Of a stretch of 64,000 nucleotides of DNA, positions 48,345 to 63,988 are shown in pieces. Both the position numbers and the translations under genes were made by a program. The notes below the pieces were generated by a model. It ran no database searches. It worked only from the letters and a program-made list of their open reading frames with translations, and was not told where the DNA came from. This DNA is from an uncultured Chryseobacterium sp. (GTDB lineage Bacteria > Bacteroidota > Bacteroidia > Flavobacteriales_F > PHOS-HE28): positions 13,828 through 77,827 of the forward strand of contig CAYMXP010000002.1 of NCBI GenBank assembly GCA_964394425.1. The letters are read 5' to 3'. Numbering within the stretch: position 1 is the stretch's first letter; the number at the start of each line of letters is the position of its first letter.

Positions 48345-48381
48345 GGCCGATGCGTGAAATGGTGCCTGGTGAAGATAGCCT

Positions 48382-49430: not shown

Positions 49431-49470
49431 CGCCCAAAGCTATGCCGGTCGGCCCATCGCGCCGTTCCGA

Positions 49471-49881
49471 TCAGTTGTTGTTGATGATGATCACCGGGTT
49501 GTCCTGGATCTTCTTCGCCGAACGCGAAACGAAGGACAGGACATGCTCGCCTTTCTTGTTCACCTTCACCTTGTACACCACCGAAACGGGACCCTTGGCG
49601 TTCACTCCGGGTTCGGCGATCTGCAGGTTCTTCTTCTCGATGGTGGGAATGGCGGTGTTCTCGAAGACGACCTTCACCAGTGCGTAGTCGTTGTTGGTGT
49701 TCTCGACCTTCGCGTTGGCGGCGGGTCCGGCGTTGATCTGTTCCCCGTTCACGAAGAGGGTGAACTTGTCGCCGTCCTCGGAATAGACCGCCAGGTCATG
49801 GGCGATCTGGGCGTTGGCGGCGGTCGCGGGAAGGATCGCGAGCGCGATCAGGAGGGAAAGGGCGTCGATGGTGGATCGCAT
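49471..49881 (-). CDS. Small secreted hypothetical protein with lower local GC.
   Basis: Signal peptide 'MRSTIDALSLLIALAILPATAANA', then a beta-rich domain ending 'NPVIIINNN'. Confidence 0.45.
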   Translation of the reverse strand: MRSTIDALSLLIALAILPATAANAQIAHDLAVYSEDGDKFTLFVNGEQINAGPAANAKVENTNNDYALVKVVFENTAIPTIEKKNLQIAEPGVNAKGPVSVVYKVKVNKKGEHVLSFVSRSAKKIQDNPVIIINNN

Positions 49882-49962
49882 GTTGTTCGGAAGGTCCAGG
49901 TGGAGGCGAAAATAGATCGCGTTCGCCGCCCTGCCGCGAGCCGGACCGATCGCGTCGACCGG

Positions 49963-51555
49963 TCAGGGCAGGCTCGTCACCTTGAGGAATTGGATGCCCC
50001 GGCCCTTGGTGAGGGCGATGATCATGGACCCATCCGCCGCGCGCAGCGAGCAGCCATTGAGCATGTAGTCCAGCGACGTGGAGCGCTGCAAGGGCATGCG
50101 CTCGATCGGGCCGCCGGATCCCTCCACATGCACCACGGGATCGAACGCGCCGGCTCCCTCCAGCGTGGCCACGTTGATCCGGGCGAACTTGTCGGGTATG
50201 GCGGCGCCCCGGGCGAATTCATGCTTTTCCCAATCGTTGAAGAAGAAGAGCAGCCTTCCCCGGTCGTACCGCACCAACGTGCGCGTGGGATCACCGAAGC
50301 CCGGCACGCCTTCCTCGACGAGGAACTTGCGCACCACGCCGGCGCGGGGATCGCCGGTGGCGGGCATGATCGCGTAAAGCAACTGATCGCGCACGTTGCC
50401 GGTGGGCGCCGCCTCGGCGGGATCGCCCAGGTAGTCGTTGCGCACCTGCACCTCGCTGGCGAAGAGCAGCGAGTCACCCGGCAGCATCTCCACGAGGATG
50501 GGCCGCGACCTGGCCAGCACGGCGGCCAGCGCCTTCGATCGCGCCTGTGGGTCGGGTTTTTCCGGCTTGGAGCTCTCCATCTCCTTGGGATCGCGCGACC
50601 GGTCGGCCAGCTGGCGCGTGCGTTCCTCGTCCAGGGGATGGATCCACCAGTCGATGGGTGTATCGGATCCTGCCAGGAAGCGGGCATGTACGATCGCGGG
50701 GGTCGATCGATCGTCGCTCACGGCGAGGCCGGCGCAGCGTGCCATGCCGGAGTTCTCCAGCACGCAGGCCACGCATCCTGGAACATGCCCGGGCACGGCG
50801 ACCTGCATGAACGCCACGCCGCCATCGGCCTTCAGGCTCACCAGCCACGACCGCCATTCAGTCCATCCGTCCTTCTTCGTCGCGGGATCCGTTCCGGTGA
50901 TCGCCAGCAGCGCGTCCCCGGCGTCGTTGGCCGAAAGGTGCTGGAACGTGATGCCCGAGAGCGGCCTGGGCAGCAGCACCTCCTGCGTGCGTGCCTTGCC
51001 CGTGCGCCAGTTCACCACCGCCACCACCAGGCTCGTGCATTCCTTCTTCTTCATGTGCGGCACCAACCAGAACGCATGGTGCCCGCCGACGAGCACCGCC
51101 GAGGAAGCCCATGAGAGCGGGGCGCTCTGGTCGGCGTTCGCGAGCCTGCCGATCGGATGGGGTTCGGCGGGGTCGGGCTTCAGCGGATCGACGAAACCCC
51201 AGATGATCTCGCCTTCACCCGCCGCATCCTCCGGCGGCCCGAAGACCACGTTGAAGATCTTGCCTTCCTCCATGCGCCAGGCGGCCAGGTCCGTGGCGCG
51301 GCGCGTGAGGTCGATGCCCGTGCGCGGTGAGCCCTTGTGTCCGGTGCTGTCGTAGCGGAAGGCCTTGGGTGCGCGCGTCATGCCGCCCACCATCAGGTAG
51401 AAGCCGTCGCCATCGGGAAGGAAGGCGTAAGGCCAGCCGTCGGAAGCCACCGTGTAGGTCGCGTGCTTTTCCACGGCCACGGTGGTGGGATCCTGGGCGG
51501 CCGATGAACTCGCGATCGCGCAGGCCACGATGGCCGCCGGGAACGATGAACGCAT
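49963..51555 (-). CDS. Large secreted hypothetical protein, possibly a beta-propeller.
   Basis: Signal peptide 'MRSSFPAAIVACAIASSSAAQ'. No catalytic motif recognised. Confidence 0.5.
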   Translation of the reverse strand: MRSSFPAAIVACAIASSSAAQDPTTVAVEKHATYTVASDGWPYAFLPDGDGFYLMVGGMTRAPKAFRYDSTGHKGSPRTGIDLTRRATDLAAWRMEEGKIFNVVFGPPEDAAGEGEIIWGFVDPLKPDPAEPHPIGRLANADQSAPLSWASSAVLVGGHHAFWLVPHMKKKECTSLVVAVVNWRTGKARTQEVLLPRPLSGITFQHLSANDAGDALLAITGTDPATKKDGWTEWRSWLVSLKADGGVAFMQVAVPGHVPGCVACVLENSGMARCAGLAVSDDRSTPAIVHARFLAGSDTPIDWWIHPLDEERTRQLADRSRDPKEMESSKPEKPDPQARSKALAAVLARSRPILVEMLPGDSLLFASEVQVRNDYLGDPAEAAPTGNVRDQLLYAIMPATGDPRAGVVRKFLVEEGVPGFGDPTRTLVRYDRGRLLFFFNDWEKHEFARGAAIPDKFARINVATLEGAGAFDPVVHVEGSGGPIERMPLQRSTSLDYMLNGCSLRAADGSMIIALTKGRGIQFLKVTSLP

Positions 51556-51578
51556 GCTGGAAATGTACCGGTTCCGGG

Positions 51579-51923
51579 TCAAGATCCACGCTGCCGCCCG
51601 GGTTTTTTGGGGCGGGCATTGCTCCAGGCGGCATCCAGCGCCTCCTTGAAGATCACGGGGCTCACGCGATCCAGTCGAACGAGCGTGGCGCCCTTTTCAC
51701 CCCACTTGCCGGGATGCGGCATGAAGGCCTCGCTGCGATGGCTGATCAGTTCCACCTGCTGTTCAACCGTGAGCATCAGCACGGCGGTACCGGCTTCAAG
51801 TTGCTGGGTCATGAAGATGCGCCCGCCTTTTCCGCGCGCGCGGTAGCTGGGGTTCCCGAAGTGGTCCCGCTCCTCGGATTCCAGCATCGCCAGGGCCAGG
51901 TCGCGCGCGGCGCCGATGTCCAT
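51579..51923 (-). CDS. MmcQ/YjbR-family small DNA-binding protein.
   Basis: 'FGNPSYRARGKGGRIFMT…AFMPHPGKWGEKGATLVRLDRVSPVIFKEALDAAW' matches the family consensus (F..P.FRV.GKIFA … F.PA.Y.GK.GW..V.LD). Start at the ATG at 51923. Confidence 0.6.
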   Translation of the reverse strand: MDIGAARDLALAMLESEERDHFGNPSYRARGKGGRIFMTQQLEAGTAVLMLTVEQQVELISHRSEAFMPHPGKWGEKGATLVRLDRVSPVIFKEALDAAWSNARPKKPGRQRGS

Positions 51924-51933
51924 CGCGTGCTGG

Positions 51934-52485
51934 TCAGCGGGGATGGTGGGTGTTCGGCCGCGTGATGGATGTCGGCCCCTCACGCTGCCACACCTGCCGG
52001 CTCGTGAGGCATTCGGGCCGCTGCAGCGACAAGGCCAGTTGCTCGCGCAGGGAAGCGGTGGACACCACGGAATCCACGCCGCCGTCGAGCAGCGAGAAGT
52101 CGTGCGTGACCAGCTGGTCGCCATCCAATTCATAGCCGTAGTGGTAGTACTTGCCTTCCGTGTCGGCGAGCGCCACGATGAATTTCCGCCCGTCCAGTTC
52201 GGTGGTCCAGCCGGTGTAGAGGGAATCCTGGGCCATGAAGTTCTCGGTTGTTCCAAGGAGTTCGATCCGGCACGTGCCATCCTCCCTGGCGGTGAGCCGC
52301 ACCCGGCTGATCTCCGCCGATCCATCCTCGTTCAGGTTCTTCCATGTGCCGAGCAACCCGGGATCGGCGGCGGCGCCGGCGCGTTCTTCAAGGGGATGAT
52401 CCAGCCCGACGGGGCAGGCCTGGAGGCTCAGGATCACCAGGGTGGCCGCCGGGGCGCGCGCGATCCGGGACGTGATGTTGTTCAT
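51934..52485 (-). CDS. Lipocalin-like lipoprotein of unknown function.
   Basis: Lipobox 'LVILSLQAC', then 'LLGTWKNLNEDGS…GKYYHYGYELDGDQLVTHDF'. Start at the ATG at 52485. Confidence 0.5.
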   Translation of the reverse strand: MNNITSRIARAPAATLVILSLQACPVGLDHPLEERAGAAADPGLLGTWKNLNEDGSAEISRVRLTAREDGTCRIELLGTTENFMAQDSLYTGWTTELDGRKFIVALADTEGKYYHYGYELDGDQLVTHDFSLLDGGVDSVVSTASLREQLALSLQRPECLTSRQVWQREGPTSITRPNTHHPR

Positions 52486-52597
52486 CTTCGGAGGATGGGG
52501 GCCAAAACTATTCCGGACAAGCGAGAACGGTCTAAGGTGAAGCACTGAAAAGGACCGTCGATCGCCGCGATCGCCGTGGATGCCGATCTTTCCGCCC

Positions 52598-53173
52598 ATG
52601 ACCAGGAACCGCCTCGAAGCCTTCAGCGATGGGGTGATCGCCATCATCATCACCATCATGGTGTTGGAGATGAAGGTTCCGCACGGCCCCGAGCTTTCGG
52701 CCTTGAAGCCGTTGTGGCCGGTGTTCTCCAGCTACCTGCTGAGCTTCGCCTACCTCGCGCTGTACTGGAACAACCACCACCATCTGCTGCACACCCTGCA
52801 CCGGGTGAACGGCGCGGTGATGTGGGCGAACCTGCACCTGCTCTTCTGGCTGTCGCTCATCCCCTTCGCCACCGCGTGGATGGGGGAGAACCACTTCGCG
52901 CCGTGGCCCACGGCGATCTATGGCGTGGTCCTGCTCCTGAGCGCGCTGGCCTGGGCGATCCTGCAACACGCGATCATCCACCTGGAGGGATCGGGTTCGG
53001 CGCTGGCGCGGGCGGTCGGACGGGACCGCAAGTGGAAGATCAGCATGGCCTGCCAGATCGCGGCCATCCCGTCGGCCTTCGTGCATGCCGCGCTCGCCGG
53101 CGCGTTGTACACCGTGGTCGCGCTGATCTGGATCATCCCCGACCGGAGGATCGAGAAAGCCCTGCGCGAATGA
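52598..53173 (+). CDS. TMEM175/DUF1211-family putative K+ channel.
   Basis: Signature 'RLEAFSDGVIAIIITIMVLE' at the start of TM1, plus six hydrophobic helices. Confidence 0.75.
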   Translation: MTRNRLEAFSDGVIAIIITIMVLEMKVPHGPELSALKPLWPVFSSYLLSFAYLALYWNNHHHLLHTLHRVNGAVMWANLHLLFWLSLIPFATAWMGENHFAPWPTAIYGVVLLLSALAWAILQHAIIHLEGSGSALARAVGRDRKWKISMACQIAAIPSAFVHAALAGALYTVVALIWIIPDRRIEKALRE

Positions 53174-53222
53174 CGCCCGGTCATCGCATGCCTTGGATAC
53201 CTTGCCCGCCCGACCACGTCGC

Positions 53223-54065
53223 ATGCCCCATCGATCCATGATCGCCGGTCGTTCTCCAGGCCTGGCCGGCCTGATCGCCCTGGCCGCGCTCCACGCATCG
53301 GCGCAGGAACCGACGCCCTTCGTGTTCGGCGAGGTGCATGTGCTTCGATCGGAGATCCTCGGCGAGGAGCGCACGCTGAACGTGTTCCTGCCGGATGGGT
53401 ACGCCGACAGCACGCTCACCTGCCCGGTGATCTACCTGCTGGACGGATCGGCCAACGAGGATTTCCCGCACATCGCGGGGCTCGCCCAGTTCATGAACAT
53501 GTACGGCCTGCTACCGAAGAGCATCGTGGTGGGCATCGCGAACGAGGGCCGCTCACGCTACCGGGACTTCACGCATGCCACCACCAACGACAGCGATCTG
53601 GTCTGGGTGCCGACCGGCGGCGGTTCGGCGCGCTTCATCGCCTTCATCGAGCGGGAGGTGCAGCCCTTCGTCGCGGGGCATTACAGGACGAACGGCACGC
53701 GCACCCTCATCGGCCAGTCGTTCGGAGGCCTGCTCGGCACGGAGATCCTCTTCAAGAAGCCGGAGCTCTTCGACAACTATGTGCTGGTGAGCCCGAGCCT
53801 GTGGTGGGACAACGGCTCGCTCGCGGCCTCGGCGGATCCATGGGCGAAGGCCAATGGCGCATCGCCGAAGCACGTCTTCATCGCCGTGGCGCGCGACGAC
53901 GACATGATGCAGGCGCAGATCGACCAGGTGGTGGCCGCCTTCAAGGCGCATGCGCGGCCTCCGTTCCAATGGATCTATCTCCCGTTCCCGGAGGAAAGTC
54001 ACATGACGATCCTGCACCGCGCGGTGTATCGGGCGTTCGAGCTGATGAACGCGAGGAAGGAATGA
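53223..54065 (+). CDS. Secreted esterase-family alpha/beta hydrolase (enterochelin-esterase-like).
   Basis: Signal peptide, then 'PVIYLLDGSANEDF' and nucleophile 'LIGQSFGGLLG'. Start ambiguous: 53193 or 53223. Confidence 0.7.
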   Translation: MPHRSMIAGRSPGLAGLIALAALHASAQEPTPFVFGEVHVLRSEILGEERTLNVFLPDGYADSTLTCPVIYLLDGSANEDFPHIAGLAQFMNMYGLLPKSIVVGIANEGRSRYRDFTHATTNDSDLVWVPTGGGSARFIAFIEREVQPFVAGHYRTNGTRTLIGQSFGGLLGTEILFKKPELFDNYVLVSPSLWWDNGSLAASADPWAKANGASPKHVFIAVARDDDMMQAQIDQVVAAFKAHARPPFQWIYLPFPEESHMTILHRAVYRAFELMNARKE

Positions 54066-54227
54066 TCGACCATGCCGATGGTGACCGCCACCGCGTGAGC
54101 CCCGCGCCATTTCTTCGCTTTCGCTCTTCTTCCCCTCCTTCAGCATTGCCCACCCCGCCCGGTCGATGCCTGCCTGCCACGCTCCCAGCGCACGCGTACC
54201 ATGCGGTGCCGGCTGCCCCCTTGGCGG

Positions 54228-54944
54228 TCAGGTCTGGGGCCGGGACCTGGGTCCCAGCCCGCCGAACAAATGCTTCTTGGCCCGTGCCACCTCCACCGTG
54301 GTGCCATCGGTGAGCTGCAATGTTGCAGCATACTTCGTCGGCGTGTAACGCATGATGTGTTTGACATTGACCAGGTGGGCGCGATGGGCGCGAACAAAGC
54401 CACGACCCTCCAATGCGGCCTCGAGCTCGCCCAGCTTGCGCGAGATCGATCGCGGCTTCGGAAGGCCGCTGGCGTGGATCACGCTGTAGCTTCCGGAGGC
54501 TTCGATGCGCGTGATCGTCGCCAGCTCGATCAGTTCGGTTCCCTTGGTGGTATGCACCGGCAGCCGATCGGCGAGGGCGGCACGCAGGGCCTGCGCGCGA
54601 GCGCCACCGGCGAGCGAGCGGCGTTTCTGCTTCAAACGCTGCACCATCGCAGCGAGCTCGTCCACGTCGATCGGCTTCAACAGGTGGTCGAACGCGCACA
54701 AGCGCAAGGCGCTCAGGATGCGATCACCGTGCGCGGTGACGAAGACCACTTCGAAGGCGCGGTCGATGCCCAGACGTTCCAGCAGTTCGATGCCCGAGAC
54801 GTGCGGCGTGCAGGATGTCCAGGAAGACCACGGCCAGCGGCGGAATGCCTTATGAGCACAAGGATCCCCTGGACGGACCTCGCAGGCCATTCCGGACATG
54901 ACATGGGTCATGCGGTATCCAGCGAGCGTATCATTATTTTTCAT
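54228..54944 (-). CDS. LytTR-type DNA-binding regulator with only a partial or degenerate receiver domain; it may be frameshifted.
   Basis: C-terminal LytTR 'HTTKGTELIELATITRIEASGSYSVIHASGLPKPRSISRKLGELEAAL…FVRAHRAHLVNVKHI'. Only the receiver alpha3-beta5 ('VSGIELLERLGIDRAFEVVFVTAHGD…FDHLLKPID') is in frame. Beta1-like 'ILVLIRHSAAGRGL' and 'PLAVVFLDI' lie in the two other frames. Confidence 0.5.
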   Translation of the reverse strand: MKNNDTLAGYRMTHVMSGMACEVRPGDPCAHKAFRRWPWSSWTSCTPHVSGIELLERLGIDRAFEVVFVTAHGDRILSALRLCAFDHLLKPIDVDELAAMVQRLKQKRRSLAGGARAQALRAALADRLPVHTTKGTELIELATITRIEASGSYSVIHASGLPKPRSISRKLGELEAALEGRGFVRAHRAHLVNVKHIMRYTPTKYAATLQLTDGTTVEVARAKKHLFGGLGPRSRPQT

Positions 54945-54991
54945 GCCCGTTCTTTTCCCGGCCTTCCAGTGTTGCACCAACCAACGGAACA

Positions 54992-57784
54992 ATGCATACC
55001 TCGAAGATCATGCTCCTGCCCGCGTCGATCCTGTGGGCAGCGGCCCATGCCCAACCCGGCGCGCTCGACCCCACCTTCGGCAGCGGTGGGAAAGTGCTGA
55101 CCGACATTGGCTACGGCAACGTCCGGTTCGACCCGGTGGTCGTGCAGCCAGATGGGCGCATCGTAAGCGCCGGCGGGACGGAGTACCTCTACTCCATATG
55201 GGGCTGTTTTACGTTGATGCGCCACAACATCGATGGAACCCTGGACAGTGGTTTTGGGAACGGGGGCATCGTGTCCACCAACCTCAACGCGGGCGATCCA
55301 GGGTGGAACAGCTATGTGGGCAACAACAGCAAAGTGACCGACCTGGCTCTGTTGCCCGATGGCCGCTTGCTCGCCGTGGGCAGGTCGTTCACGGTCGTCA
55401 GTGGCAGCGGGTGGAACCGACTGGCCATGGCGCGCTACCTCACGGATGGGAGCCTCGATCCCTCATTCGGCACGAATGGCTGGCTGGTGGACCTTGGTCT
55501 GAATTGCTTGGATGCATACGTTGCATTGATGGATGACGGTCGCTTCGTGGTGGCCGCCGCACATGGCTCTGGAGAGTTCCATGTGCTGCGCTACAACGCC
55601 GATGGCACGCCCGATGCCAGCTTCGACGGTGACGGGCACATCACCCATCAGGTGGGAACGGGAGGGAACACGGTCTGCGGAACGGGAATACTGGCGGATG
55701 GACGGATCGTCGTGGGTGGGAGTGTCTACAATGGCACCGATGATGATGCGTACCTGGTGCGGTTCGATGCCGATGGAGCCGTGGACAGCACATACAATGG
55801 GACCGGTGTGATCACTTCGGCTCCCGGGATCTACGAAGACCTGCTGAACGACATGATCGTGCATGATGATGGGACCGTGATCGCGGTCGGTTCCACCGTT
55901 CTCACAACATGGGTCACCCAGTGGTTCCTGCAACGTTACCTGCCCGACGGCACGCCCGACCCCGGCTTCGGGACCGGTGGGACGGTGATCCACGAGATCG
56001 GCCCCGATGGTGGCGATCTGCAAGCCGTGGCGGAGCGTTCGGACGGAGAGATCATCGTCACTGGATCTCGCGTTGTGGTCGGCGGGGGGAGTTCCGAACA
56101 GCTCTCGGCTGCCTTCACCGCCCAGGGAGTGCTGGACATCGCCTATGGCGCGGGGGGCTACTGCGTCTTCAACTTCGCACCGGATGTGCTGTATCCGGGC
56201 GGGATCGCCTTGGGCGTGAACGACCAGGCCGCGGTTGCCGGCTCGGTTTCCATCGATGGTATGAATTGGATCTACGAGGCGGGTGTGGTCAGCATCTCGT
56301 CGAACGGCACGCTTGATCCCGTGTTCAATGGAACCGGCTTTACCGTGCAGAACTCGGGGATCGGCGGCGACCTCGGGCACGCGGTGGCCAGGCAACCGGA
56401 TGGGAAACTCCTGGTCGCGAGCGAAACACAGATGGACGGAGCCACCCATGCAGTCGTGACCCGCTATCTCTCCGACGGGTCCATCGATCCAAGCTTCGGC
56501 ACCAATGGAAGCGCGCAACTGCCGTCAAACAGACCGCTCTGCATCGCCGTGCAGCCCGACGGCAAGATCCTGATCGGGATCGATTACATGTTCACCATTT
56601 ACCGCTTGAACGGCGACGGCACCATCGACCTTGGCTTCAATGGCCTGGGCTTTGTCACCATCATGGACTTCCTCGGAAGCAACAACATCGGTGCCGTGCG
56701 CGGCATCGCCGTGCAACCCGATGGCAAGGTCGTGGCCGCTGGTTTCGCGGGCATTGTTGGAATCGACAAGTCCTTCGCACTGGCCCGCTTCAACCCCGAT
56801 GGATCCCTGGACCCCGGATTCGGCGGGGATGGCAAGGTGGTCACGGATCTGATGTTCGGCCTTTGGGAGGAGATCGATGACATGGCCTTGATGCCCGATG
56901 GCCGGATCGTGGTGACCGGCTACGCCGAGACCGCCGAGGGATTCGTGGTCGCGCGGTATGAGCCCGACGGCGATCTCGATCCCACCTTCGGTGGCGGCGA
57001 TGGGATCATCAACCATACGGTCACGGGATATTGGACCCAGTCGAAGCGGATCGACTTGCGCACCGATGGACGGATCCTGCTGGCCGGCTACGCGCAGGAG
57101 GACTTGGATCCGTCCAACTTCGACATCGCCCTGATGCAGTTGCTTGCCAACGGGTCGCTCGATGCGAGCTTCGGCACGGGCGGCAAGGTGATCATGGACA
57201 TCGGTGCCACGATGCAGGAGATCACGGGCCTGGTGTTGCAGGCCGATGGCAAGGCCCTCGTGGCCGGCTACGCCATCTTCGGCGGCAATGACGACTTCGT
57301 GCTGCTGCGTTACGGCATCGACGGTCAACTGGACAATTCCTTCGGCACGGGCGGGGTGGTCACCACCGACTTCGGCCCCTACGCGGAGCGCGGCCACGAC
57401 CTGCTGATCCAGCCCGATGGCAAGGCCGTGGTGGTGGGGTTCGCTGTAACGCAGAGCGACCTCGACATCGCATTGGCCCGCTACGACTTGGGGACGATCA
57501 TCGGAGTGCCCGATCTGCCCGCACCCGCACCCGATCTGCAGGTGTGGCCTTCGCCACTCGCGCCATCCTCCGTGGCGTCCTACACGCTTGCCATGCCCGC
57601 ATCGGTCAACATGGGGCTCTTCGACGCGCAAGGCCGCCTCGCGCTCGAACTGCTTTCCGGCGAACGGATGCCGATGGGCACACACCGGATCTCCCTGGCC
57701 GGGGCACAGCGGCTGTCGCCCGGCCCCTACACGCTGGTCCTGCGCACCGCGGAGGGCGCCGCCAAGGTGATGTTGGTGCGTTGA
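54992..57784 (+). CDS. Delta-60-repeat beta-propeller protein with a T9SS C-terminal sorting domain (copy 1, 930 aa).
   Basis: Signal peptide 'MLLPASILWAAAHAQ'. About 14 repeats of ~60 aa, each starting 'G(S/T)LDP(S/T)FG(T/G)(N/G)G' (e.g. 'GALDPTFGSGGKV', 'GSLDPSFGTNG', 'GSIDPSFGTNG', 'GSLDASFGTGG'). T9SS-type tail 'PYTLVLRTAEGAAKVMLVR'. Confidence 0.8.
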   Translation: MHTSKIMLLPASILWAAAHAQPGALDPTFGSGGKVLTDIGYGNVRFDPVVVQPDGRIVSAGGTEYLYSIWGCFTLMRHNIDGTLDSGFGNGGIVSTNLNAGDPGWNSYVGNNSKVTDLALLPDGRLLAVGRSFTVVSGSGWNRLAMARYLTDGSLDPSFGTNGWLVDLGLNCLDAYVALMDDGRFVVAAAHGSGEFHVLRYNADGTPDASFDGDGHITHQVGTGGNTVCGTGILADGRIVVGGSVYNGTDDDAYLVRFDADGAVDSTYNGTGVITSAPGIYEDLLNDMIVHDDGTVIAVGSTVLTTWVTQWFLQRYLPDGTPDPGFGTGGTVIHEIGPDGGDLQAVAERSDGEIIVTGSRVVVGGGSSEQLSAAFTAQGVLDIAYGAGGYCVFNFAPDVLYPGGIALGVNDQAAVAGSVSIDGMNWIYEAGVVSISSNGTLDPVFNGTGFTVQNSGIGGDLGHAVARQPDGKLLVASETQMDGATHAVVTRYLSDGSIDPSFGTNGSAQLPSNRPLCIAVQPDGKILIGIDYMFTIYRLNGDGTIDLGFNGLGFVTIMDFLGSNNIGAVRGIAVQPDGKVVAAGFAGIVGIDKSFALARFNPDGSLDPGFGGDGKVVTDLMFGLWEEIDDMALMPDGRIVVTGYAETAEGFVVARYEPDGDLDPTFGGGDGIINHTVTGYWTQSKRIDLRTDGRILLAGYAQEDLDPSNFDIALMQLLANGSLDASFGTGGKVIMDIGATMQEITGLVLQADGKALVAGYAIFGGNDDFVLLRYGIDGQLDNSFGTGGVVTTDFGPYAERGHDLLIQPDGKAVVVGFAVTQSDLDIALARYDLGTIIGVPDLPAPAPDLQVWPSPLAPSSVASYTLAMPASVNMGLFDAQGRLALELLSGERMPMGTHRISLAGAQRLSPGPYTLVLRTAEGAAKVMLVR

Positions 57785-57829
57785 CGTGTTCGATGAGGGG
57801 CGGTACGCTGCGTGCGTCGCCGAAATCCA

Positions 57830-58423
57830 TCAGGGATGCATCACACGGAGGATCGGCGTTCCATCGGTGGCGTCGCGCACCAGGTAAAGGCCGGGCGGAG
57901 CGAGGTGGTACGCACCGTCCAGTTCCGCAGGGGTGCCATGCGCGAGCGATCGCCCTTGCGGATCGATCAGTACGAGCCCCGGCAGGCCCGGGGGCAGCAC
58001 CTCCGACAAGCGATCGGCGATCGCGACGCGTGATGCCGTCCGGAAGGAGGAAGGTGCCTCGTTCACGTGCGTGGTGGCATCCGTGCTGAACGCCGTGAGC
58101 GAGATCTCGGTGTGCTTGTTGAGGATGTTGAGCGTGTCGAAGGTGGCGGCGGAAAGCACGAAGAGCGTTTCGCCTGTAAGCGCCGTGGCGTGCAGGATGT
58201 CGTGTGTGTTGGTGACAGCGTCGTTGAATAGGAAATGCGTTGCGATCGTGCCGTCGGAACCATCGAAGCGGCTCACCTCGATGTCCTGCCCGATCGTTCC
58301 AGCAGTTCGATGCCCGAGACGCGCGGCATGCGGATGTCCAGGAAGACCACGGCCAGCGGCGGAATGCCGGATGAGCACAGAGATCCCATGGACGGACCTC
58401 GCAGGCCATTTCGAACATGACAT
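57830..58423 (-). pseudogene. Chimeric ORF at the duplication junction. The 5' ~35 codons derive from the LytTR-regulator gene and are fused in frame to the last ~165 codons (T9SS C-terminal domain) of the 61337-62857 gene.
   Basis: The ORF 'MSCSKWPARSVHGISVLIRHSAAGRGL…' continues as 'IGQDIEVSRFDGSDGTIATHFLFNDAVTNTHDILHATALTGETLFVLSAATFDTLNILNKHTEISLTAFSTDATTHVNEAPSSFRTASRVAIADRLSEVLPPGLPGLVLIDPQGRSLAHGTPAELDGAYHLAPPGLYLVRDATDGTPILRVMHP'. That stretch is ~95% identical to the C-terminus of the 506-aa protein. Confidence 0.6.
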
Positions 58424-58510
58424 GGGTCATGCGGTATCCAGCGAGCGGTTCATTATTTTTCATGCCCGTTCTTTTCCCGGCCTTCCAGTGTTGCACCAAC
58501 CAACGGAACA

Positions 58511-61291
58511 ATGCATACCTCGAAGATCATGCTCCTGCCCGCGTCGATCCTGTGGGCAGCGGCCCATGCCCAACCCGGCGCGCTCGACCCCACCTTCGGC
58601 AGCGGTGGCAAAGTGCTCACCGACATTGGCTACGGCAACGACTTTTTCGATCCGGTGGTCGTGCAGACCGATGGAAGGATCGTGAGCGCCGGCGGCACGG
58701 AAAACGCTTTGGGGGGGTGCTTCACCTTGATGCGTCACAACACGGACGGGAGCCTGGACAGCGGTTTTGGAGGGGATGGCATCGTGTCCACCAACGTCAA
58801 TGCGGGCGATCCGGGTTGGCACACCTATGTGGGCAATTACAGCCGCGCCACCGATCTGGCCCTGCTGCCCGACGGTCGCGTGCTGGCCGTGGGCCGGTCG
58901 TTCACGATGATCAGCGGGATCGGAGTGAACCGACTGGCCATGGCGCGCTACCTCCCCGATGGCAGCCTCGATCCCACCTTCGGAACGGACGGCTGGTCGG
59001 TGGATCTGGACGTGGCCATCCTCGATGCCTTCGTGGCAGTGATGGATGATGGCCGTTTTGTGATCGCCGCCGCACTTGGGTTCGGAGATTTCCACGTGCT
59101 GCGCTACAACGAGGACGGTACGCCGGACATGAGCTTCGCCGGCATCGGCCACATCACCCATCAGGTGGGAACGGGAGAGAACACGGTCCGCGGAACGGGA
59201 ATACTGGCGGATGGACGGATCGTCGTGGGTGGGAATGTCTTCAATGGCACCGATGATGATGCGTACCTGGTGCGGTTCGATGCCGATGGAGCCGTGGACA
59301 GCACATACAATGGGACCGGTGTGATCACTTCGGCTCCCGGGATCTACGATGACCTGCTGAACGACATGATCGTGCGTGACGATGGGACCGTGATCGTGGT
59401 GGGCACCACCGTTCCCACGCCGTGGACCCAGCAATGGTTGCTGCAACGGTATCTGCCCGATGGTTCACCGGACCCCACGTTCGCCGGCACCGGCACCCTG
59501 GTCCATGAGGTCACCGTGGATGGCGGCGACCTGCAGGCGGTCGTTGAGCGTTCCGATGGTGAACTCATCGTCGCGGGATCGCGCTATTGGGGAGGGAGTT
59601 CTGAAGCGGTGACGGCCGCGTTCACGGCTTCGGGAGCGTTCGATGCCGCTTATGGCGCCGGTGGCTACTGCGTCCCACCGTTCACGCCCGATGTGTTCTA
59701 CCCTGGTGCGATCGCACTGGGATCGAACGATCAGGTGGCGGTGGCGGGCGGTTTCTCGATCGACGGCATGATGAACGTCATCGCTGTTGGGGTGGTCAGC
59801 ATCACCACCGCTGGCCTGCTCGATCCGGCGTTCAATGGCACCGGCTTCACCGTGCAGAACTCGGGGATCGGCGGCGACCTCGGGCACGTGGTGGCCAGGC
59901 AACCGGATGGAAAACTCCTGGTCGCGAGCGAAACGCAGATGGGCAGCATGGTCCAGGTGATGGTGACCCGCTACCACGCCGACGGATCCATCGATCCGAC
60001 CTTCGGGGTCAACGGAACCGCGCAGGTGCCGGGCACAAGGCCGGCAAGCATCGCCCTACAGCCCAATGGCGGGATCCTGATCGGCGACGCGTTCATGTTC
60101 ACCCTTTCCCGCTTGAACAGCGACGGCACCATCGACCTTGGCTTCAATGGTCTGGGCGTCGTCACCATCATGGACTTCCTCGGTAGCAACAACTTCGGCG
60201 CCGTGCGCGGCATCGCCGTGCAGCCCGATGGCAAGATCGTGGCCGCAGGTTTCGCGGGCCTGGTCGGATCCGACAAGTCCTTCGCACTGGCCCGCTTCAA
60301 CCCCGATGGATCCCTGGACCCCGGATTCGGCGGGGATGGCAAGGTGGTCACGGATCTGATGTTCGGCCTTTGGGAGGAGATCGATGACATGGCCTTGATG
60401 CCCGATGGCCGGATCGTGGTGACCGGCTACGCCGAGACCGCCGAGGGATTCGTGGTCGCGCGGTATGAGCCCGACGGCGATCTCGATCCCACCTTCGGTG
60501 GCGGCGATGGGATCATCAACCATACGGTCACGGGATATTGGACCCAGTCGAAGCGGATCGACTTGCGCACCGATGGACGGATCCTGCTGGCCGGCTACGC
60601 GCAGGAGGACTTGGATCCGTCCAACTTCGACATCGCCCTGATGCAGTTGCTTGCCAACGGGTCGCTCGATGCGAGCTTCGGCACGGGCGGCAAGGTGATC
60701 ATGGACATCGGTGCCACGATGCAGGAGATCACGGGCCTGGTGTTGCAGGCCGATGGCAAGGCCCTCGCGGCGGGCTACGCCATTTTCGGCGGCGTGGACG
60801 CCTTCGTGCTGCTGCGTTATGACATCGCCGGGGCGTTGGACCCGGCCTTTGGCACGGGTGGGGTGGTCACCACCGACTTCGGTCCCTACGCGCAGCGCGG
60901 CCACGATCTGCTGATCCAACCCGATGACAAGGCGGTGGTGGTGGGTTTCGCGGTGACGCAGAGCGATCTCGACATCGCATTGGCCCGCTACGACCTGGGG
61001 ACGATCATCGGAGTGCCCGATCTCCCCGCACCCGCACCCGATCTGCAGGTGTGGCCTTCGCCACTCGCGCCATCCTCCGTGGCGTCCTACACGCTTGCCA
61101 TGCCCGCATCGGTCAACATGGGGCTCTTCGACGCGCAAGGCCGCCTCGCGCTCGAACTGCTTTCCGGCGAACGGATGCCGATGGGCACACACCGGATCTC
61201 CCTGGCCGGGGCACAGCGGCTGTCGCCCGGCCCCTACACGCTGGTCCTGCGCACCGCGGAGGGCGCCGCCAAGGTGATGTTGGTGCGTTGA
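58511..61291 (+). CDS. Delta-60-repeat beta-propeller protein with a T9SS C-terminal sorting domain (copy 2, 926 aa).
   Basis: The first ~40 aa and last ~330 aa are (near-)identical to copy 1; the central repeats have diverged. Confidence 0.8.
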   Translation: MHTSKIMLLPASILWAAAHAQPGALDPTFGSGGKVLTDIGYGNDFFDPVVVQTDGRIVSAGGTENALGGCFTLMRHNTDGSLDSGFGGDGIVSTNVNAGDPGWHTYVGNYSRATDLALLPDGRVLAVGRSFTMISGIGVNRLAMARYLPDGSLDPTFGTDGWSVDLDVAILDAFVAVMDDGRFVIAAALGFGDFHVLRYNEDGTPDMSFAGIGHITHQVGTGENTVRGTGILADGRIVVGGNVFNGTDDDAYLVRFDADGAVDSTYNGTGVITSAPGIYDDLLNDMIVRDDGTVIVVGTTVPTPWTQQWLLQRYLPDGSPDPTFAGTGTLVHEVTVDGGDLQAVVERSDGELIVAGSRYWGGSSEAVTAAFTASGAFDAAYGAGGYCVPPFTPDVFYPGAIALGSNDQVAVAGGFSIDGMMNVIAVGVVSITTAGLLDPAFNGTGFTVQNSGIGGDLGHVVARQPDGKLLVASETQMGSMVQVMVTRYHADGSIDPTFGVNGTAQVPGTRPASIALQPNGGILIGDAFMFTLSRLNSDGTIDLGFNGLGVVTIMDFLGSNNFGAVRGIAVQPDGKIVAAGFAGLVGSDKSFALARFNPDGSLDPGFGGDGKVVTDLMFGLWEEIDDMALMPDGRIVVTGYAETAEGFVVARYEPDGDLDPTFGGGDGIINHTVTGYWTQSKRIDLRTDGRILLAGYAQEDLDPSNFDIALMQLLANGSLDASFGTGGKVIMDIGATMQEITGLVLQADGKALAAGYAIFGGVDAFVLLRYDIAGALDPAFGTGGVVTTDFGPYAQRGHDLLIQPDDKAVVVGFAVTQSDLDIALARYDLGTIIGVPDLPAPAPDLQVWPSPLAPSSVASYTLAMPASVNMGLFDAQGRLALELLSGERMPMGTHRISLAGAQRLSPGPYTLVLRTAEGAAKVMLVR

Positions 61292-61336
61292 CGTGTTCGA
61301 TGAGGGGCGGTACGCTGCGTGCGTCGCCGAAATCCA

Positions 61337-62857
61337 TCAGGGATGCATCACACGGAGGATCGGCGTTCCATCGGTGGCGTCGCGCACCAGGTAAAGGCCG
61401 GGCGGAGCGAGGTGGTACGCACCGTCCAGTTCCGCAGGGGTGCCATGCGCGAGCGATCGCCCTTGCGGATCGATCAGTACGAGCCCCGGCAGGCCCGGGG
61501 GCAGCACCTCCGACAAGCGATCGGCGATCGCGACGCGTGATGCCGTCCGGAAGGAGGAAGGTGCCTCGTTCACGTGCGTGGTGGCATCCGTGCTGAACGC
61601 CGTGAGCGAGATCTCGGTGTGCTCGTTGAGGATGTTGAGCGTGTCGAAGGTGGCGGCGGAAAGCACGAAGAGCGTGTCGCCCGCGACGGCCGCGGCGTGC
61701 AGGATGTCATGCGTGTTGGTCACGGCGTCGTTGAAGAGGAAGTGCGTGGCGATCGTGCCGACGGATCCATCGAACCGGGTGACCTCGATATCCTGCCCGA
61801 TCGTGCTTCCGTCCTTGCGGCCATTCACCAGCACCGCGCCGTCCGGAGCGGCGATCAGCTGCATGCCGGGGTAGTACGAATAGATGTACGAGGTGTCTCC
61901 CCATTGCGGTTCGAGCGCATCATCGTAGCGGAACAGGAAGCGGTTGGTGGTGGCGATGTAGGCCGCGTGGTCCTTCACCAGCAGGTCGCCGAGCGTCGGT
62001 GTAATGGCGAGCGTGTCGATGTTCTCCGTCAGGAGCTGTCCGGTGATCACCGAGCGGAACGACAGGCGCAATTGGCCGGACCAGGTGGTGATGGCCGTGA
62101 GCAATGTGTCCTGCGTCCACGGTCTTGTGATCGCCGCGGCGTTCACCAGAAAGCCGGTGGTGTCCGTGAGGTAGGTGCTCCACGCCACGCTCAGGTCGCT
62201 GGTGTCGATCAACGCTTCCCACGGCACGGTGGTGAAGGCATCGGGGTGCTGCACCATGGCGTCTACCAACAAGCCATGGCCGGGGATGAAACTTGCGTGC
62301 AGTTCTTGCACGGGATGCGGCATCGGGATGCTTTGGGCCATGGCCACGCCTGCCGTGCGCTCGCAGGCCATCACATGGATGAATGCGCTGTCGTTGCGCT
62401 CGCCTGCGGCCACCACCCAGGCGTTCGGTGAGGAGCCACTACCTACGGGGGGTGTCAAATGATCCACCTCGAAGTCATGAAAGGCGTGCGACCAGTCCAG
62501 CATCGGCCCATCGAGGTCGAGGCCGAGGATGCGCAAGCCCTGTCCGCCGTTGATCACGCACTGGTAAGCCAGCAGCGCGCCATCATCAAGGAAGCATGTG
62601 CCGCCCTGGAAGAGCGCGGAGTCGAACTGGGCGAAGCTCCAGAGCAGGGAACCGTCCGTGGTGAGCAGGTCCAGCGCGGGAACGTGGTTGTAGCTGCGGC
62701 CCGCGAGCAAGCTGTCGTGGCGCAACGCGAGGCCCAGGCCCACATCGCCGAAGCCGTTCTGGTTACCGCTGTTCGCGTGGCGCATGGTCCAGAGCTGCTG
62801 CTGGGCGGCTATTGTGCTCAAGGACGCAAGGAGAACGATGGTAAGGAGGGTGCGCAT
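61337..62857 (-). CDS. Secreted hypothetical protein with a T9SS C-terminal sorting domain (506 aa).
   Basis: Signal peptide 'MRTLLTIVLLASLSTIAAQQ'. C-terminal tail identical to the chimera's. Start at the ATG at 62857. The 358 upstream codons of the ORF are a GC artefact. Confidence 0.65.
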   Translation of the reverse strand: MRTLLTIVLLASLSTIAAQQQLWTMRHANSGNQNGFGDVGLGLALRHDSLLAGRSYNHVPALDLLTTDGSLLWSFAQFDSALFQGGTCFLDDGALLAYQCVINGGQGLRILGLDLDGPMLDWSHAFHDFEVDHLTPPVGSGSSPNAWVVAAGERNDSAFIHVMACERTAGVAMAQSIPMPHPVQELHASFIPGHGLLVDAMVQHPDAFTTVPWEALIDTSDLSVAWSTYLTDTTGFLVNAAAITRPWTQDTLLTAITTWSGQLRLSFRSVITGQLLTENIDTLAITPTLGDLLVKDHAAYIATTNRFLFRYDDALEPQWGDTSYIYSYYPGMQLIAAPDGAVLVNGRKDGSTIGQDIEVTRFDGSVGTIATHFLFNDAVTNTHDILHAAAVAGDTLFVLSAATFDTLNILNEHTEISLTAFSTDATTHVNEAPSSFRTASRVAIADRLSEVLPPGLPGLVLIDPQGRSLAHGTPAELDGAYHLAPPGLYLVRDATDGTPILRVMHP

Positions 62858-63052
62858 CTGCTTGTGCGGAGTGGATGACGGGAACGGGTTGCTGTGCGGC
62901 GCATGTCCGGGTCGTGCGATCAATGGATCACAACCCCAGAGGGAAGTTGCGCCCCCTTTCGCCAGCCCATACCTTCGGCTAAGGTATCGGCACGGCGGTG
63001 CCTGAAGTGATGCGGAAAGGGCGCCGCCACCATGCCGCAAGAACGATCCGCC

Positions 63053-63988
63053 ATGAGAACACGACCGCTCCCCATCGCCGCCTTGGCCATCGCCTGTGCT
63101 GCGAACGGCCAGGTGGCCTACGACTTTCCGGATGCCGTGCCGCCGATGGGCACCTATTCGATCGACTTCCACCAATCGACCGGTGCGGTGGGCACGATCC
63201 CCGACGCTCCGCCGTGGGATCTTTCCGCGATCGCGATGGATCCGGGCACGCCCTCGTCCTATCAATGGCTGCCACCTTCGACCTCGCCCGATGCCGGTTC
63301 TTTTCCCACGGCCACCCACCGGTTGCTCGACAACTTCAACGAAATGGATGAGTTCATGATCGTTGGGTCGGATGGCATCACGCTGCTGGGTGGCGTGTAC
63401 AGCGGGCTGCCGCCCACGGTGCTCATCGACCCGTTCGGGTTCCGCGTGTTCCCGAGCATGGTGGGTGCGACCTACACGGACACCCTGATCGCCCCGCCGG
63501 CCGACACCAGCGTATGGAACCATGAGCCCACGGGACTGGGCACGTTGATCACGGCCTGGGGCACCTTCACCGACGTGGTGCGGGTGGAGCGCACGCGCAC
63601 CATCGGCACCACCACCTATCCGGACCACGTGTTCTGGTATTCGACCACGAACCTGCTCGAACCGCTGGCCTATCTGTCCGTCAACTGGGATGTGCTTGTC
63701 ATCCTTCACCCCACGGGCTTCACCGGCATCGGGGAGCGCGACGATGAACATGCGTTGAAGGCGTATCCCAATCCGACACGTGACCAGGTCATCATCGAAT
63801 GGAACGGAGAACATCTGCGTTCGATCGCGCTGCGAGATGCCACGGGGCGCTGTGTGCTCGAGCGGCCATGGATGAACGGTGCTCGACAGGAGTTCGATCT
63901 GCCTGCGGATCTGGCGCCCGGCAATTACCACCTGAGCTTGACGACGGATCGGATGGTGATCCAGCGGCCGCTGGTCGTCGTGCGTTGA
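63053..63988 (+). CDS. Secreted hypothetical protein with a T9SS C-terminal sorting domain (Por_Secre_tail).
   Basis: Signal peptide 'MRTRPLPIAALAIACAANGQ'. Tail 'KAYPNPTRDQVIIEWNGEHLRSIALRDATGRCVLERPWMNGARQEFDLPADLAPGNYHLSLTTDRMVIQRPLVVVR' matches the canonical T9SS pattern (YPNPT…D..GR.V……L..G.Y). Confidence 0.65.
   Translation: MRTRPLPIAALAIACAANGQVAYDFPDAVPPMGTYSIDFHQSTGAVGTIPDAPPWDLSAIAMDPGTPSSYQWLPPSTSPDAGSFPTATHRLLDNFNEMDEFMIVGSDGITLLGGVYSGLPPTVLIDPFGFRVFPSMVGATYTDTLIAPPADTSVWNHEPTGLGTLITAWGTFTDVVRVERTRTIGTTTYPDHVFWYSTTNLLEPLAYLSVNWDVLVILHPTGFTGIGERDDEHALKAYPNPTRDQVIIEWNGEHLRSIALRDATGRCVLERPWMNGARQEFDLPADLAPGNYHLSLTTDRMVIQRPLVVVR

What the first reader, a model, noticed from the sequence alone, without database searches (positions are those of the whole stretch)
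54777..61814. A recent 3519-bp direct tandem duplication has doubled the delta-60 propeller gene and created a chimeric junction ORF
Segments 54777-58295 and 58296-61814 are near-identical direct repeats with a period of 3519 bp. The left end lies inside the LytTR-regulator-like gene and the right end inside the 506-aa T9SS cargo gene. The junction at about 58290-58300 ('…ctgcccgatcgt|tccagcagttcgatgcccgagac…') fuses the 3' part of the cargo gene to the 5' part of the regulator gene. Short shared motifs (cgatcg / tgccc) at both parental sites suggest microhomology-mediated recombination. The result is two paralogous 930-aa and 926-aa secreted propeller proteins in tandem, a classic route to surface-protein family expansion.
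Basis: seen in the sequence. Interest (0 to 1): 0.7.

Follow-up and report, generated by a model that had tools for sequence, protein, structure and literature searches.

The report
Diverged tandem copy of propeller gene
A 3.5-kb stretch carrying a secreted beta-propeller gene really is present twice in tandem, but the copies are only about 87% alike and patchy, so this is an ordinary gene-family expansion, probably involving DNA from a related strain, and not a fresh near-identical duplication.

Summary
The tandem duplication is real. Unit 1 (54767-58297) and unit 2 (58287-61804) are colinear. They are joined head to tail at an 11-nt imperfect microhomology inside a degenerate LytTR-regulator gene and a 506-aa gene. 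Each unit holds an intact delta-60 propeller gene (930 and 926 aa).

Support:
- An independent JGI assembly of the same population contains the junction.
- More than 18 contigs from related strains show the unduplicated order regulator, propeller, 506-aa gene.

The copies are neither "near-identical" nor simply "recent":
- Overall identity is 88% nt (86.5% in the JGI version) and 85% aa.
- Identity per 100 nt runs from 64% to 100%, and synonymous divergence per block from 0 to 1.5.
- Unit 1 is an outgroup to unit 2 plus the single-copy strains.
- The truncated 506-aa-gene fragment at the junction diverged under purifying selection.

The sequence divergence is therefore probably older than the junction: two diverged alleles were brought together by recombination between lineages.

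The two longest 100%-identical blocks exist only in this assembly. All 55 differences from the JGI contig point toward unit 2, so they reflect very recent gene conversion or assembly homogenisation.

This is an ordinary kind of event, of modest interest.

The parts
54767..58297 (.). Repeat unit 1: regulator 5' end, short divergent spacer, propeller gene P1, and a 3' fragment of the 506-aa gene
   Evidence: blastn self-alignment; profile of identity
58287..61804 (.). Repeat unit 2: regulator 5' fragment, spacer, propeller gene P2, and the 3' end of the intact 506-aa gene
   Evidence: It is 95.6-96.0% identical to the single-copy loci L005 and L015.
58287..58297 (.). Junction microhomology TGCCCGATCGT. 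The right parent is ...CTGCCCGATCGT|GCTTCC and the left parent is ...GATGCCCAGACGT|TCCAGCAG.
   Evidence: The junction sequence is identical in JGI contig L002.
54992..57784 (+). P1, 930 aa: signal peptide, 14 LDxxFG blades (13 delta-60 repeats by HMM), C-terminal CTD-like domain
   Evidence: TIGR02608 at 481 bits against a cut-off of 76.5; PF17164; blades; custom CTD profile 36.8 bits at residues 849-929. It equals NCBI protein P0123.
58511..61291 (+). P2, 926 aa, paralogue of P1 (84.8% aa identity)
   Evidence: It equals P0002. dS to the single-copy strains is 0.06.
54228..54944 (-). LytTR-type regulator with a degenerate receiver domain. It carries a 1-nt deletion near 54861 and a compensating +A at 54812, which together scramble about 20 codons around the phospho-acceptor.
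   Evidence: LytTR 48.4 bits. Response_reg reaches only 27.5 bits, below its cut-off of 30.2, and covers only profile positions 53-111. Frames and indels. JGI calls a 238-aa gene here.
58298..58510 (-). Copy of the regulator 5' end plus spacer, truncated at the junction. Its receiver-domain frame (FLDIRMPRVSGIELLERS) stops 5 codons past the join.
57830..58297 (-). Copy of the last 155 codons of the 506-aa gene. It forms most of the 197-aa junction ORF 57830-58423, which JGI calls as 182 aa.
   Evidence: Against the intact gene dS is 0.12-0.17 and dN/dS 0.17-0.29, with no stop codons or indels.
61337..62857 (-). Intact 506-aa gene of unknown function with an N-terminal signal-like segment. The right boundary of the duplication lies 468 nt from its 3' end.
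   Evidence: No Pfam or NCBIfam match.
54931..55089 (.). 159-nt run identical in both units (the partner is 58450-58608). It covers the spacer, the start codon and the signal peptide. All three JGI contigs break here.
56764..57260 (.). Tract of unit 1 identical to unit 2 in this assembly only (33 sites differ in JGI contig L002)
57518..58116 (.). Second tract of unit 1 identical to unit 2 in this assembly only (22 sites differ in L002)

Best explanation
This is a genuine two-unit tandem duplication of the segment [regulator 5' end, propeller gene, 3' end of the 506-aa gene]. The units are joined by illegitimate recombination at a short microhomology (TGCCC..CGT).

The two units are not fresh copies of one another. 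They are two diverged, mosaic alleles of a highly polymorphic surface-propeller locus, and most of their divergence arose before the junction existed. There are two ways this could have happened:
- An allelic segment from a related lineage was inserted next to the resident copy in one step, with a homologous crossover on one side and a microhomology join on the other.
- A plain duplication was followed by replacement of one copy's interior with DNA from another lineage.

Afterwards, short tracts were homogenised between the copies.

The result is two intact, probably expressed, secreted 14-blade delta-60 propeller paralogues that differ mainly in blades 3, 6, 7 and 9. Two dead gene fragments remain at the junction.

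Shown: the structure, the junction, the single-copy parental state, the mosaic divergence and the outgroup position of unit 1.
Inferred: the order of events, the direction of transfer, and expression.
For: Structure:
- The two units form one colinear alignment.
- The junction lies inside JGI contig L002, which comes from an independent assembly.
- The three JGI contigs cover 43238-55074 at 100.000%, 54946-58593, and 58465 onward at 99.98%. They break exactly at the shared 159-nt run.
- Three Logan contigs from other sequencing runs end at 54842. That is the last 31-mer unique to unit 1 before a 31-mer shared only with unit 2.

Parental state:
- L005-L015, from more than 18 contigs and many samples, carry regulator, one propeller and the 512/506-aa gene.
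- These loci run straight through both breakpoints.
- Both microhomology sites are intact in them.

Divergence older than a simple copy:
- Synonymous differences are wildly uneven along the gene (chi-square 106, 18 df, p = 1.5e-14). dS is about 0 in some blocks and 0.9-1.5 in others.
- In three-way site patterns unit 1 is the odd one at 376 sites, against 55 sites where unit 1 and unit 2 agree and the single-copy strain S5 (contig L005) is odd.
- dS is 0.35 for P1 against P2 and 0.35 for P1 against S5, but 0.06 for P2 against S5. Flanking genes between these strains give 0.18-0.48.
- L100 shares the esterase flank at 99-100% up to about 54220. It then drops to 83-93% through the regulator and carries an S5-like propeller.

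Junction younger than the divergence:
- The truncated 506-aa-gene fragment has dN/dS 0.29 (0.17 in the window version), with no stop codon or indel.
- This is significantly below neutrality (p = 0.0009) and below the value expected if one branch had been a pseudogene throughout (p = 0.03; 0.004 for the window version).
Against: - Units 1 and 2 share a 1-nt deletion near 54861 and a 12-nt patch at 54936-54947 that the single-copy strains lack.
- In the first 200 nt of the unit the three lineages are equidistant. That part therefore looks like an in-genome copy or a conversion tract.
- No donor with a P1-type sequence was found among 5.8 billion proteins, GTDB genomes or JGI contigs.
- The dN/dS argument rests on only 21-34 substitutions.
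- The direction of transfer is unresolved. P2's unusual closeness to the single-copy strains could mean that P2, not P1, is the import.
- Integration by one-sided homology is reported to be orders of magnitude rarer than ordinary homologous recombination (PMC5361080).
Confidence: 0.55

Rival explanations
1. This is an old duplication made in place. The segment was copied long ago, before this strain split from the single-copy strains. The two propeller genes then diverged as paralogues, with occasional gene conversion keeping some blocks identical. The single-copy relatives lost unit 1 by recombination between the repeats.
For: - Unit 1 is an outgroup to unit 2 plus the single-copy strains.
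- Blocks with dS of 0.9-1.5 alternate with blocks of dS about 0.
- Units 1 and 2 share an indel and a patch near the 5' end.
- A crossover within the 159-nt identical run would remove unit 1 cleanly and leave a P2-type single copy.
Against: - The junction fragment of the 506-aa gene shows purifying-selection-like divergence (dN/dS 0.17-0.29), with no indel or stop. A long-dead fragment should look neutral.
- All three single-copy lineages (S5, S15, L100) would each need a loss, or one loss followed by spread.
- P2 is closer to S5/S15 (dS 0.06) than the flanking genes are (0.18-0.48), which needs recombination between lineages anyway.
Confidence: 0.3
2. A very recent in-genome tandem duplication gave two near-identical units that have barely diverged.
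For: - This assembly has long 100% identical runs at 56764-57260 and 57518-58116, plus the 159-nt run at the 5' end.
- The join has the microhomology typical of new duplications.
Against: - Overall identity is 88% nt, and 64-76% across 55860-56360.
- Mean dS is 0.31-0.35.
- Unit 2 is far closer to other strains' single copy (96%) than to unit 1 (86.5%).
- The two longest identical runs are missing from the independent JGI contig.
Confidence: 0.02
3. This is an assembly artefact. The genome has one unit, and the assembler stitched two co-occurring strain haplotypes (P1-type and P2-type) one after the other.
For: - The source is a metagenome-assembled contig.
- The short-read JGI assembly could not resolve the region and broke it into three contigs.
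- The two assemblies disagree within unit 1.
Against: - The junction sequence joins two non-adjacent genes at only 3+5 nt of shared sequence. A k-mer assembler cannot create it without reads that contain it, and it lies inside JGI contig L002, flanked by P1 on one side and the propeller start on the other.
- The flanks are identical between assemblies: 0 differences in 11,837 nt and 1 in 5,536 nt.
- Logan contigs from other runs break exactly where co-occurrence of both units predicts.
Confidence: 0.05

Closest known systems
Bacterial tandem duplications formed at short or micro-homologies (RecA-independent join points, as described for Salmonella and E. coli; from general knowledge)
   Same: There is a head-to-tail join between two unrelated sites that share only a few bases. 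The unit is a few kb long and cuts through genes, leaving a novel junction. The array can be lost again by recombination between the copies.
   Different: New duplications of that kind are sequence-identical. Here the units differ by 12-13.5% in a mosaic pattern, and unit 1 branches outside unit 2 plus other strains' single copy.
Homology-facilitated illegitimate recombination, and the 'displacement' arrays it is proposed to create (T6SS effector-immunity arrays, Rhs orphan 3' ends; PMC5361080, PMC3240628)
   Same: In both, incoming homologous DNA would be anchored on one side and joined illegitimately on the other. The new allele then sits beside the resident one and leaves orphaned gene fragments. 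Here there is an identity step near 54250 relative to L100 on one side and a microhomology join at 58297 on the other.
   Different: No donor has been identified and the direction of transfer is unresolved. Both full-length genes are retained rather than one being displaced. No experimental system or evidence of competence exists beyond a ComEC homologue in the window.
Mosaic surface-protein genes and concerted evolution of tandem paralogues (gene conversion; mosaic outcomes of transformation, e.g. PMC13344027 abstract)
   Same: Blocks of near-identity alternate with blocks 25-35% diverged, at synonymous sites too. Different segments support different sister relationships. Other strains (L100) carry their own patches.
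   Different: No silent cassettes or further paralogues lie within the 64-kb window. The sources of the patches are unknown.
Delta-60 repeat / DUF5122 beta-propeller proteins (TIGR02608, PF17164) with a T9SS C-terminal sorting domain
   Same: P1 and P2 match strongly (481 and 458 bits). Thousands of homologues exist, many from Bacteroidota MAGs and many carrying PF18962.
   Different: The curated CTD models do not reach P1 or P2. Only a profile built here does. The function of the family is unknown, and no paper in the library uses the term.

Membership tests
Tandem segmental duplication | Two adjacent colinear copies in direct orientation | tested here: met
   There is a single blastn alignment, 54767-58297 against 58287-61804.
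Tandem segmental duplication | A novel junction joins the right end of the unit to its left end, and this is reproducible | tested here: met
   The junction is at 58287-58297 and is identical in the independent JGI contig L002. No read-level data were available.
Tandem segmental duplication | An unduplicated parental arrangement exists in relatives | tested here: met
   L005-L015 are single-copy and colinear through both breakpoints.
Recent (near-identical) duplication | The copies are nearly identical, and each is the other's closest relative | tested here: not met
   Identity is 86.5-88% nt. Unit 2 is 96% identical to other strains' copy. Unit 1 is the odd one at 376 of 518 variable sites.
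Delta-60 repeat protein (TIGR02608 / PF17164) | The curated HMM scores above its cut-off, with multiple repeats | tested here: met
   Scores are 481.3 and 457.5 bits against a cut-off of 76.5, with 13 stretches. PF17164 scores 290.7 and 275.4 bits.
T9SS type A cargo (TIGR04183 / PF18962 C-terminal domain) | A C-terminal sorting domain is recognised, together with an N-terminal signal peptide | tested here: inconclusive
   The curated models give no hit at E <= 10 for P1, P2 or the 506-aa protein. A profile built from the CTDs of PF18962-bearing homologues hits P1 849-929 and P2 845-925 at about 37 bits, but the 506-aa protein at only 3.5 bits. The signal peptide was judged by eye only.
LytTR-family response regulator | An intact receiver domain with the phospho-acceptor Asp, plus a LytTR DNA-binding domain | tested here: not met
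   The LytTR domain is present (48.4 bits). The receiver scores 27.5 bits, below its cut-off of 30.2, and only profile positions 53-111 are in frame. The acceptor region is scrambled by two indels. In relatives the acceptor is Ala and the N-terminal half is short.
Product of homology-facilitated illegitimate recombination | One end is joined by extended homology and the other at a microhomology, and the inserted DNA comes from another lineage | tested here: inconclusive
   The microhomology join is met. A step in identity near 54250 relative to L100 is compatible with a homologous crossover. Unit 1 is an outgroup, but no donor was found, and part of the 5' end looks like an in-genome copy.

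The most novel reading that the evidence does not exclude
The tandem pair was made in a single step by allele capture. A roughly 4-kb segment (regulator, P1, tail of the 506-aa gene) from a diverged relative was integrated by a homologous crossover near 54250 and an illegitimate microhomology join at 58297. It landed beside the resident P2-type gene instead of replacing it. Surface-propeller families in these Bacteroidota would then expand by capturing other strains' alleles at a hyper-mosaic locus, not by copying their own gene.
Probability: 0.25. Interest if true: 0.45.

Novelty: new member of a known kind. Interest (0 to 1): 0.25.

Why it matters
- Biology: this is one more example of how secreted repeat-protein families grow and diversify in uncultured Bacteroidota. 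It comes with an unusually clear before-and-after comparison, because single-copy strains and the duplicated strain are both available.
- Dating: identity between tandem copies is a poor clock here, because recombination between lineages and between copies has overwritten the signal.
- Assembly: the two assemblies of the same population differ only inside the repeat, and always toward the other copy. Long 100% blocks inside diverged repeats in metagenome-assembled genomes may therefore come from repeat resolution and not from biology.
- Function: nothing here opens a long-standing question, and the function of delta-60 propellers remains unknown.

Tried and rejected
- Exact look-ups of P1, the esterase from its TTG start, and the junction ORF were not on record. 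This contig's gene positions appear not to be indexed, so nothing can be inferred from that.
- A genome-contig scan with P2 alone found nothing. With an alignment, the nearest hits were only 49-66% identical Flavobacteriales-type MAGs. That is useful for taxonomy only.
- The junction 25-mer gave 0 hits in metagenome contigs, even though JGI contig L002 contains it. The collection evidently lacks that contig, so the result is not evidence against the junction.
- P1 in metagenome contigs found only a P2-type single-copy locus, L096.
- A homologue search with the junction ORF found only the JGI copy, P0133.
- I tested whether the divergent patches come from other blades of the same gene. The self-alignment shows at most about 71-72% identity between internal repeats, so this was rejected.
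- I tested whether the patches come from P0003- or P0004-type alleles. These are no closer, at 62-74% identity.
- I considered positive selection as the cause of the divergence. dN/dS is 0.31 overall and dS itself is high in the divergent blocks, so this was rejected.
- I looked for a sharp drop in similarity to S15 exactly at the right boundary (61804), which would mark an imported unit 2. None is seen, and the flank is itself mosaic.
- A literature search for 'delta-60 repeat' returned 0 papers.
Full report
**Observation**

A self-alignment of 53-64 kb gives one colinear direct-repeat alignment. It pairs 54767-58297 with 58287-61804 at 88.3% identity over 3544 columns, with 374 mismatches and 16 gap openings.

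The spacing between the copies is 3520/3519 nt at the left end. It slips to 3513 and then 3507 nt because of small indels.

A global alignment scored in 100-column steps shows a strongly mosaic pattern, from 65% to 100% identity. The repeat is real and far beyond chance, but 'near-identical' is wrong.

**Anatomy**

- **Propeller genes.** Each unit carries an intact propeller ORF: P1 at 54992-57784 (930 aa) and P2 at 58511-61291 (926 aa). They are 84.8% identical in protein, and the window holds no other paralogue.
  - Both match the delta-60 repeat model far above its cut-off (481 and 458 bits against 76.5, 13 repeats) and also match PF17164.
  - Counting LDxxFG motifs gives 14 blades. Blades 3, 6, 7 and 9 are the most diverged (64-73% aa). 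The C-terminal 81 residues are 98-100% identical.
- **Left boundary.** It lies in a minus-strand regulator gene (54228-54944).
  - The LytTR domain is intact.
  - The receiver domain scores below the Pfam cut-off, and only its second half is in frame.
- **Right boundary.** It lies 468 nt from the 3' end of a minus-strand 506-aa gene (61337-62857), which has no family match.
- **Junction.** The junction reads ...CTGCCCGATCGT|TCCAGCAG....
  - The two parental sites share TGCCC and CGT, which is 8 of 11 nt.
  - Both parental sites are present unchanged in single-copy relatives. A microhomology-mediated illegitimate join is therefore a sound reading.
- **Junction ORF.** It is not an in-frame protein fusion.
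  - In unit 2 the receiver-domain frame (FLDIRMPRVSGIELLERS) stops 5 codons past the join.
  - The 197-aa ORF 57830-58423 reads the regulator fragment in another frame.
  - That ORF lacks the signal-like N-terminus of the 506-aa protein.

**Is it an assembly artefact?**

The window is part of a 110,943-nt NCBI contig. Its P1 and P2 are proteins P0123 and P0002.

An independent JGI assembly (sample 3300009873) split the locus into three contigs:

| Contig | Length | Window coordinates | Identity to window |
|---|---|---|---|
| L098 | 182.9 kb | 43238-55074 | 100.000% |
| L002 | 3,648 nt | 54946-58593 | 98.49% |
| L001 | 77.5 kb | 58465 onward | 99.98% |

- All three breaks fall in the 159-nt run that is identical in both units.
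- L002 contains P1, the junction and the start of the next propeller gene. The junction therefore exists in reads assembled independently, and it cannot be explained without at least two units.
- Three Logan contigs from other sequencing runs are identical to the window and end at 54842.
  - That position is the last 31-mer containing the unit-1-specific base A54812.
  - The next 31-mer occurs only in units 1 and 2, and not in the single-copy strains.
  - This is the graph branch expected if both units co-occur in those samples.
- I could not examine reads. Copy number (two units or more) is untested.

**Parental state**

The 90% cluster of P2 includes P0121 and P0122.

- Their contigs (L005-L015) come from more than 18 contigs across JGI, ENA and Logan samples. 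All show one regulator remnant, one propeller and the 512/527/506-aa gene.
- L005 and L015 align continuously with the left flank, one unit and the right flank of the window, straight through both breakpoints.
- A more distant relative, L003 (P0003, 72-76% aa), also has one copy. There the propeller lies on the other side of the 506-aa-gene homologue.
- L004 has one copy in an unrelated context.

The duplicated state is therefore derived and specific to this strain.

**How old, and from where?**

Several results contradict a simple recent copy.

1. Synonymous divergence between P1 and P2 is extremely uneven.
   - dS is about 0 in codons 1-50, 251-300, 601-650 and 851-942. It is 0.9-1.5 in codons 51-100 and 301-450.
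   - The heterogeneity test gives chi-square 106, 18 df, p = 1.5e-14.
   - dN/dS is about 0.3 throughout, so positive selection does not explain the divergent blocks.
2. Unit 1 branches outside the other copies.
   - In a three-way comparison of unit 1 (JGI version), unit 2 and the single-copy strain S5, unit 1 is the odd one at 376 sites.
   - S5 is odd at 55 sites and unit 2 at 73.
   - Unit 2 is 95.6-96.0% identical to S5 and S15, whereas unit 1 is 86.5-87% identical to all of them.
3. Calibration against neighbouring genes:

   | Comparison | dS |
   |---|---|
   | P2 vs S5/S15 | 0.06 |
   | P1 vs P2 | 0.35 |
   | P1 vs S5 | 0.35 |
   | Flanking genes, this strain vs S5/S15 | 0.18-0.48 |

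   P2 is therefore closer to other strains' genes than its own neighbours are. P1 sits at about background divergence, with patches far beyond it.
4. L100 shares the esterase flank at 99-100% up to about 54220.
   - It then drops to 83-93% through the regulator.
   - Its propeller is S5-like but has its own 74-80% patches.
   - The propeller is therefore a mosaic, highly polymorphic locus across strains, and the window's regulator-P1 block has a different history from its left flank.
5. The truncated tail of the 506-aa gene at the junction differs from the intact gene.
   - dS is 0.17 and dN/dS 0.29 (0.12 and 0.17 in the window version), with no stop codon or indel.
   - This is below neutrality (p = 0.0009). 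It is also below the value expected if the fragment had been a pseudogene for the whole divergence time (p = 0.03; 0.004 for the window version).
   - Most of that divergence was therefore laid down while both sequences were parts of working genes, that is, before the junction formed.

Together these results favour two diverged alleles brought together by recombination between lineages. This could have happened in one step or by duplication followed by allelic replacement.

Evidence on the other side:
- Units 1 and 2 share a 1-nt deletion near 54861 and a 12-nt patch at 54936-54947 that S5 and L100 lack.
- No P1-type donor was found.

An old in-place duplication with conversion and later loss in relatives remains a serious rival.

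**The 100% blocks**

The window and L002 differ at 55 positions.

- All 55 lie in 56845-57187 and 57583-58042.
- At every one of them the window's unit 1 carries the unit-2 base.
- Some of those bases are unit-2-specific relative to S5.
- Outside the repeat the two assemblies differ at 0 of 11,837 nt and 1 of 5,536 nt.

The L002 variants cannot be invented by an assembler, so a unit 1 that is only 86.5% identical to unit 2 exists in the population. The window's two long identical runs (497 and 599 nt) are either very recent unit-2-to-unit-1 gene conversion in a subpopulation or homogenisation during repeat resolution. I lean toward the latter but cannot decide without reads.

**Function**

P1 and P2 have a signal-peptide-like N-terminus (MHTSKIMLLPASILWAAAHA|Q, judged by eye) and 14 delta-60 blades.

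Their C-terminal roughly 80 residues get no hit from the curated T9SS models. They match a profile I built from the CTDs of PF18962-bearing homologues at about 37 bits.

The window also holds clear or borderline TIGR04183 proteins (39475-41865; 63032-63988). The nearest genomes are Flavobacteriales-type MAGs. Secretion of the propellers by the T9SS is therefore plausible.

For the 506-aa protein it is not supported (3.5 bits).

The regulator is degenerate in every strain examined.
- The receiver's N-terminal half is short everywhere.
- The acceptor is Ala in S5 and L100.
- In the window two compensating indels scramble about 20 codons around the acceptor.
- In S5-type strains the LytTR half is replaced by a mobile or defence island.

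The 213 nt upstream of the propeller gene are duplicated with it, and 61 of those nt are in the identical run. Both genes therefore keep the same immediate upstream sequence. Expression of either is untested.

**Comparison with known systems and verdict**

The structure is a standard microhomology-joined tandem duplication. The sequence pattern is that of mosaic surface-protein genes shaped by recombination between strains and between copies.

The one-step version resembles homology-facilitated illegitimate recombination. That mechanism has been proposed for T6SS effector-immunity arrays and for Rhs orphan ends (PMC5361080; PMC3240628). It is reported to be rare, and here it is only compatible with the data, not shown.

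Nothing about the locus is outside known kinds. It is a new member of a known kind, of modest interest. Its main value is as a clean before-and-after example and as a caution about identity blocks inside repeats of metagenome-assembled genomes.

Noticed in passing
window 54228-54944 (minus strand); also L100 1508-2191 and L005 9430-9921: The LytTR regulator next to the propeller has a degenerate receiver domain in every strain seen. The N-terminal half is short everywhere. The acceptor Asp is Ala in S5 and L100. In the window a 1-nt deletion (about 54861) and a compensating +A (54812) scramble about 20 codons.
   Followed up: partly
L005 1-9430, L006, L007: In the S5-type single-copy strains the LytTR half of the regulator and the esterase flank are replaced by an island. 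It carries ORF6N genes, PemK/PIN toxin-antitoxin genes, a DNA methylase with an HNH protein, RhuM and Bro-N. Homology to the window starts only at about 54578.
   Followed up: no
L003 1566-7343 compared with window 54992-63988: In the more distant relative L003 the single propeller gene lies downstream of the 506-aa-gene homologue and the Por_Secre_tail gene, not between the esterase and the 506-aa gene. L003 has no regulator. The locus has therefore been rearranged as well as duplicated.
   Followed up: partly
window 63032-63988; L015 4997-5902; absent from L005 and L008: A 318-aa gene with a weak T9SS C-terminal domain (23-24 bits, at or just below the cut-offs) lies next to the 506-aa gene. 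It is present in this strain, S15 and L003 but missing in S5-type strains.
   Followed up: no
L100 2271-5069 (corresponds to window 55660-55859 and 56060-56559): Another strain's propeller allele is 96% identical to S5 overall but has its own patches of 74-86% identity. They sit in places where P1, P2 and S5 agree. Patchwise replacement therefore seems to be a general feature of this gene. The sources of the patches are unknown.
   Followed up: partly
window 58511-61291 compared with L005 and L015, and flanks: P2 is much closer to the propellers of S5 and S15 (dS 0.06) than the neighbouring genes of the same strains are (dS 0.18-0.48). Likewise P2 vs P0003 gives dS 0.44 while the flanks give 0.73-0.87. 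This suggests the propeller gene spreads between lineages faster than its surroundings.
   Followed up: partly
window 39475-41865 and 31467-33668: The window holds a 796-aa protein with a clear T9SS type A sorting domain (31 bits against a cut-off of 23) and a ComEC/Rec2 homologue. These give context for secretion and for possible DNA uptake.
   Followed up: no
window 36367-39372 (-) / 36514-39300 (+), and many other places: Long ORFs overlap on opposite strands throughout the window, as expected at 65% G+C. ORF length alone is not evidence of a gene here. An example is the 301-aa ORF 57606-58511 across the junction.
   Followed up: no
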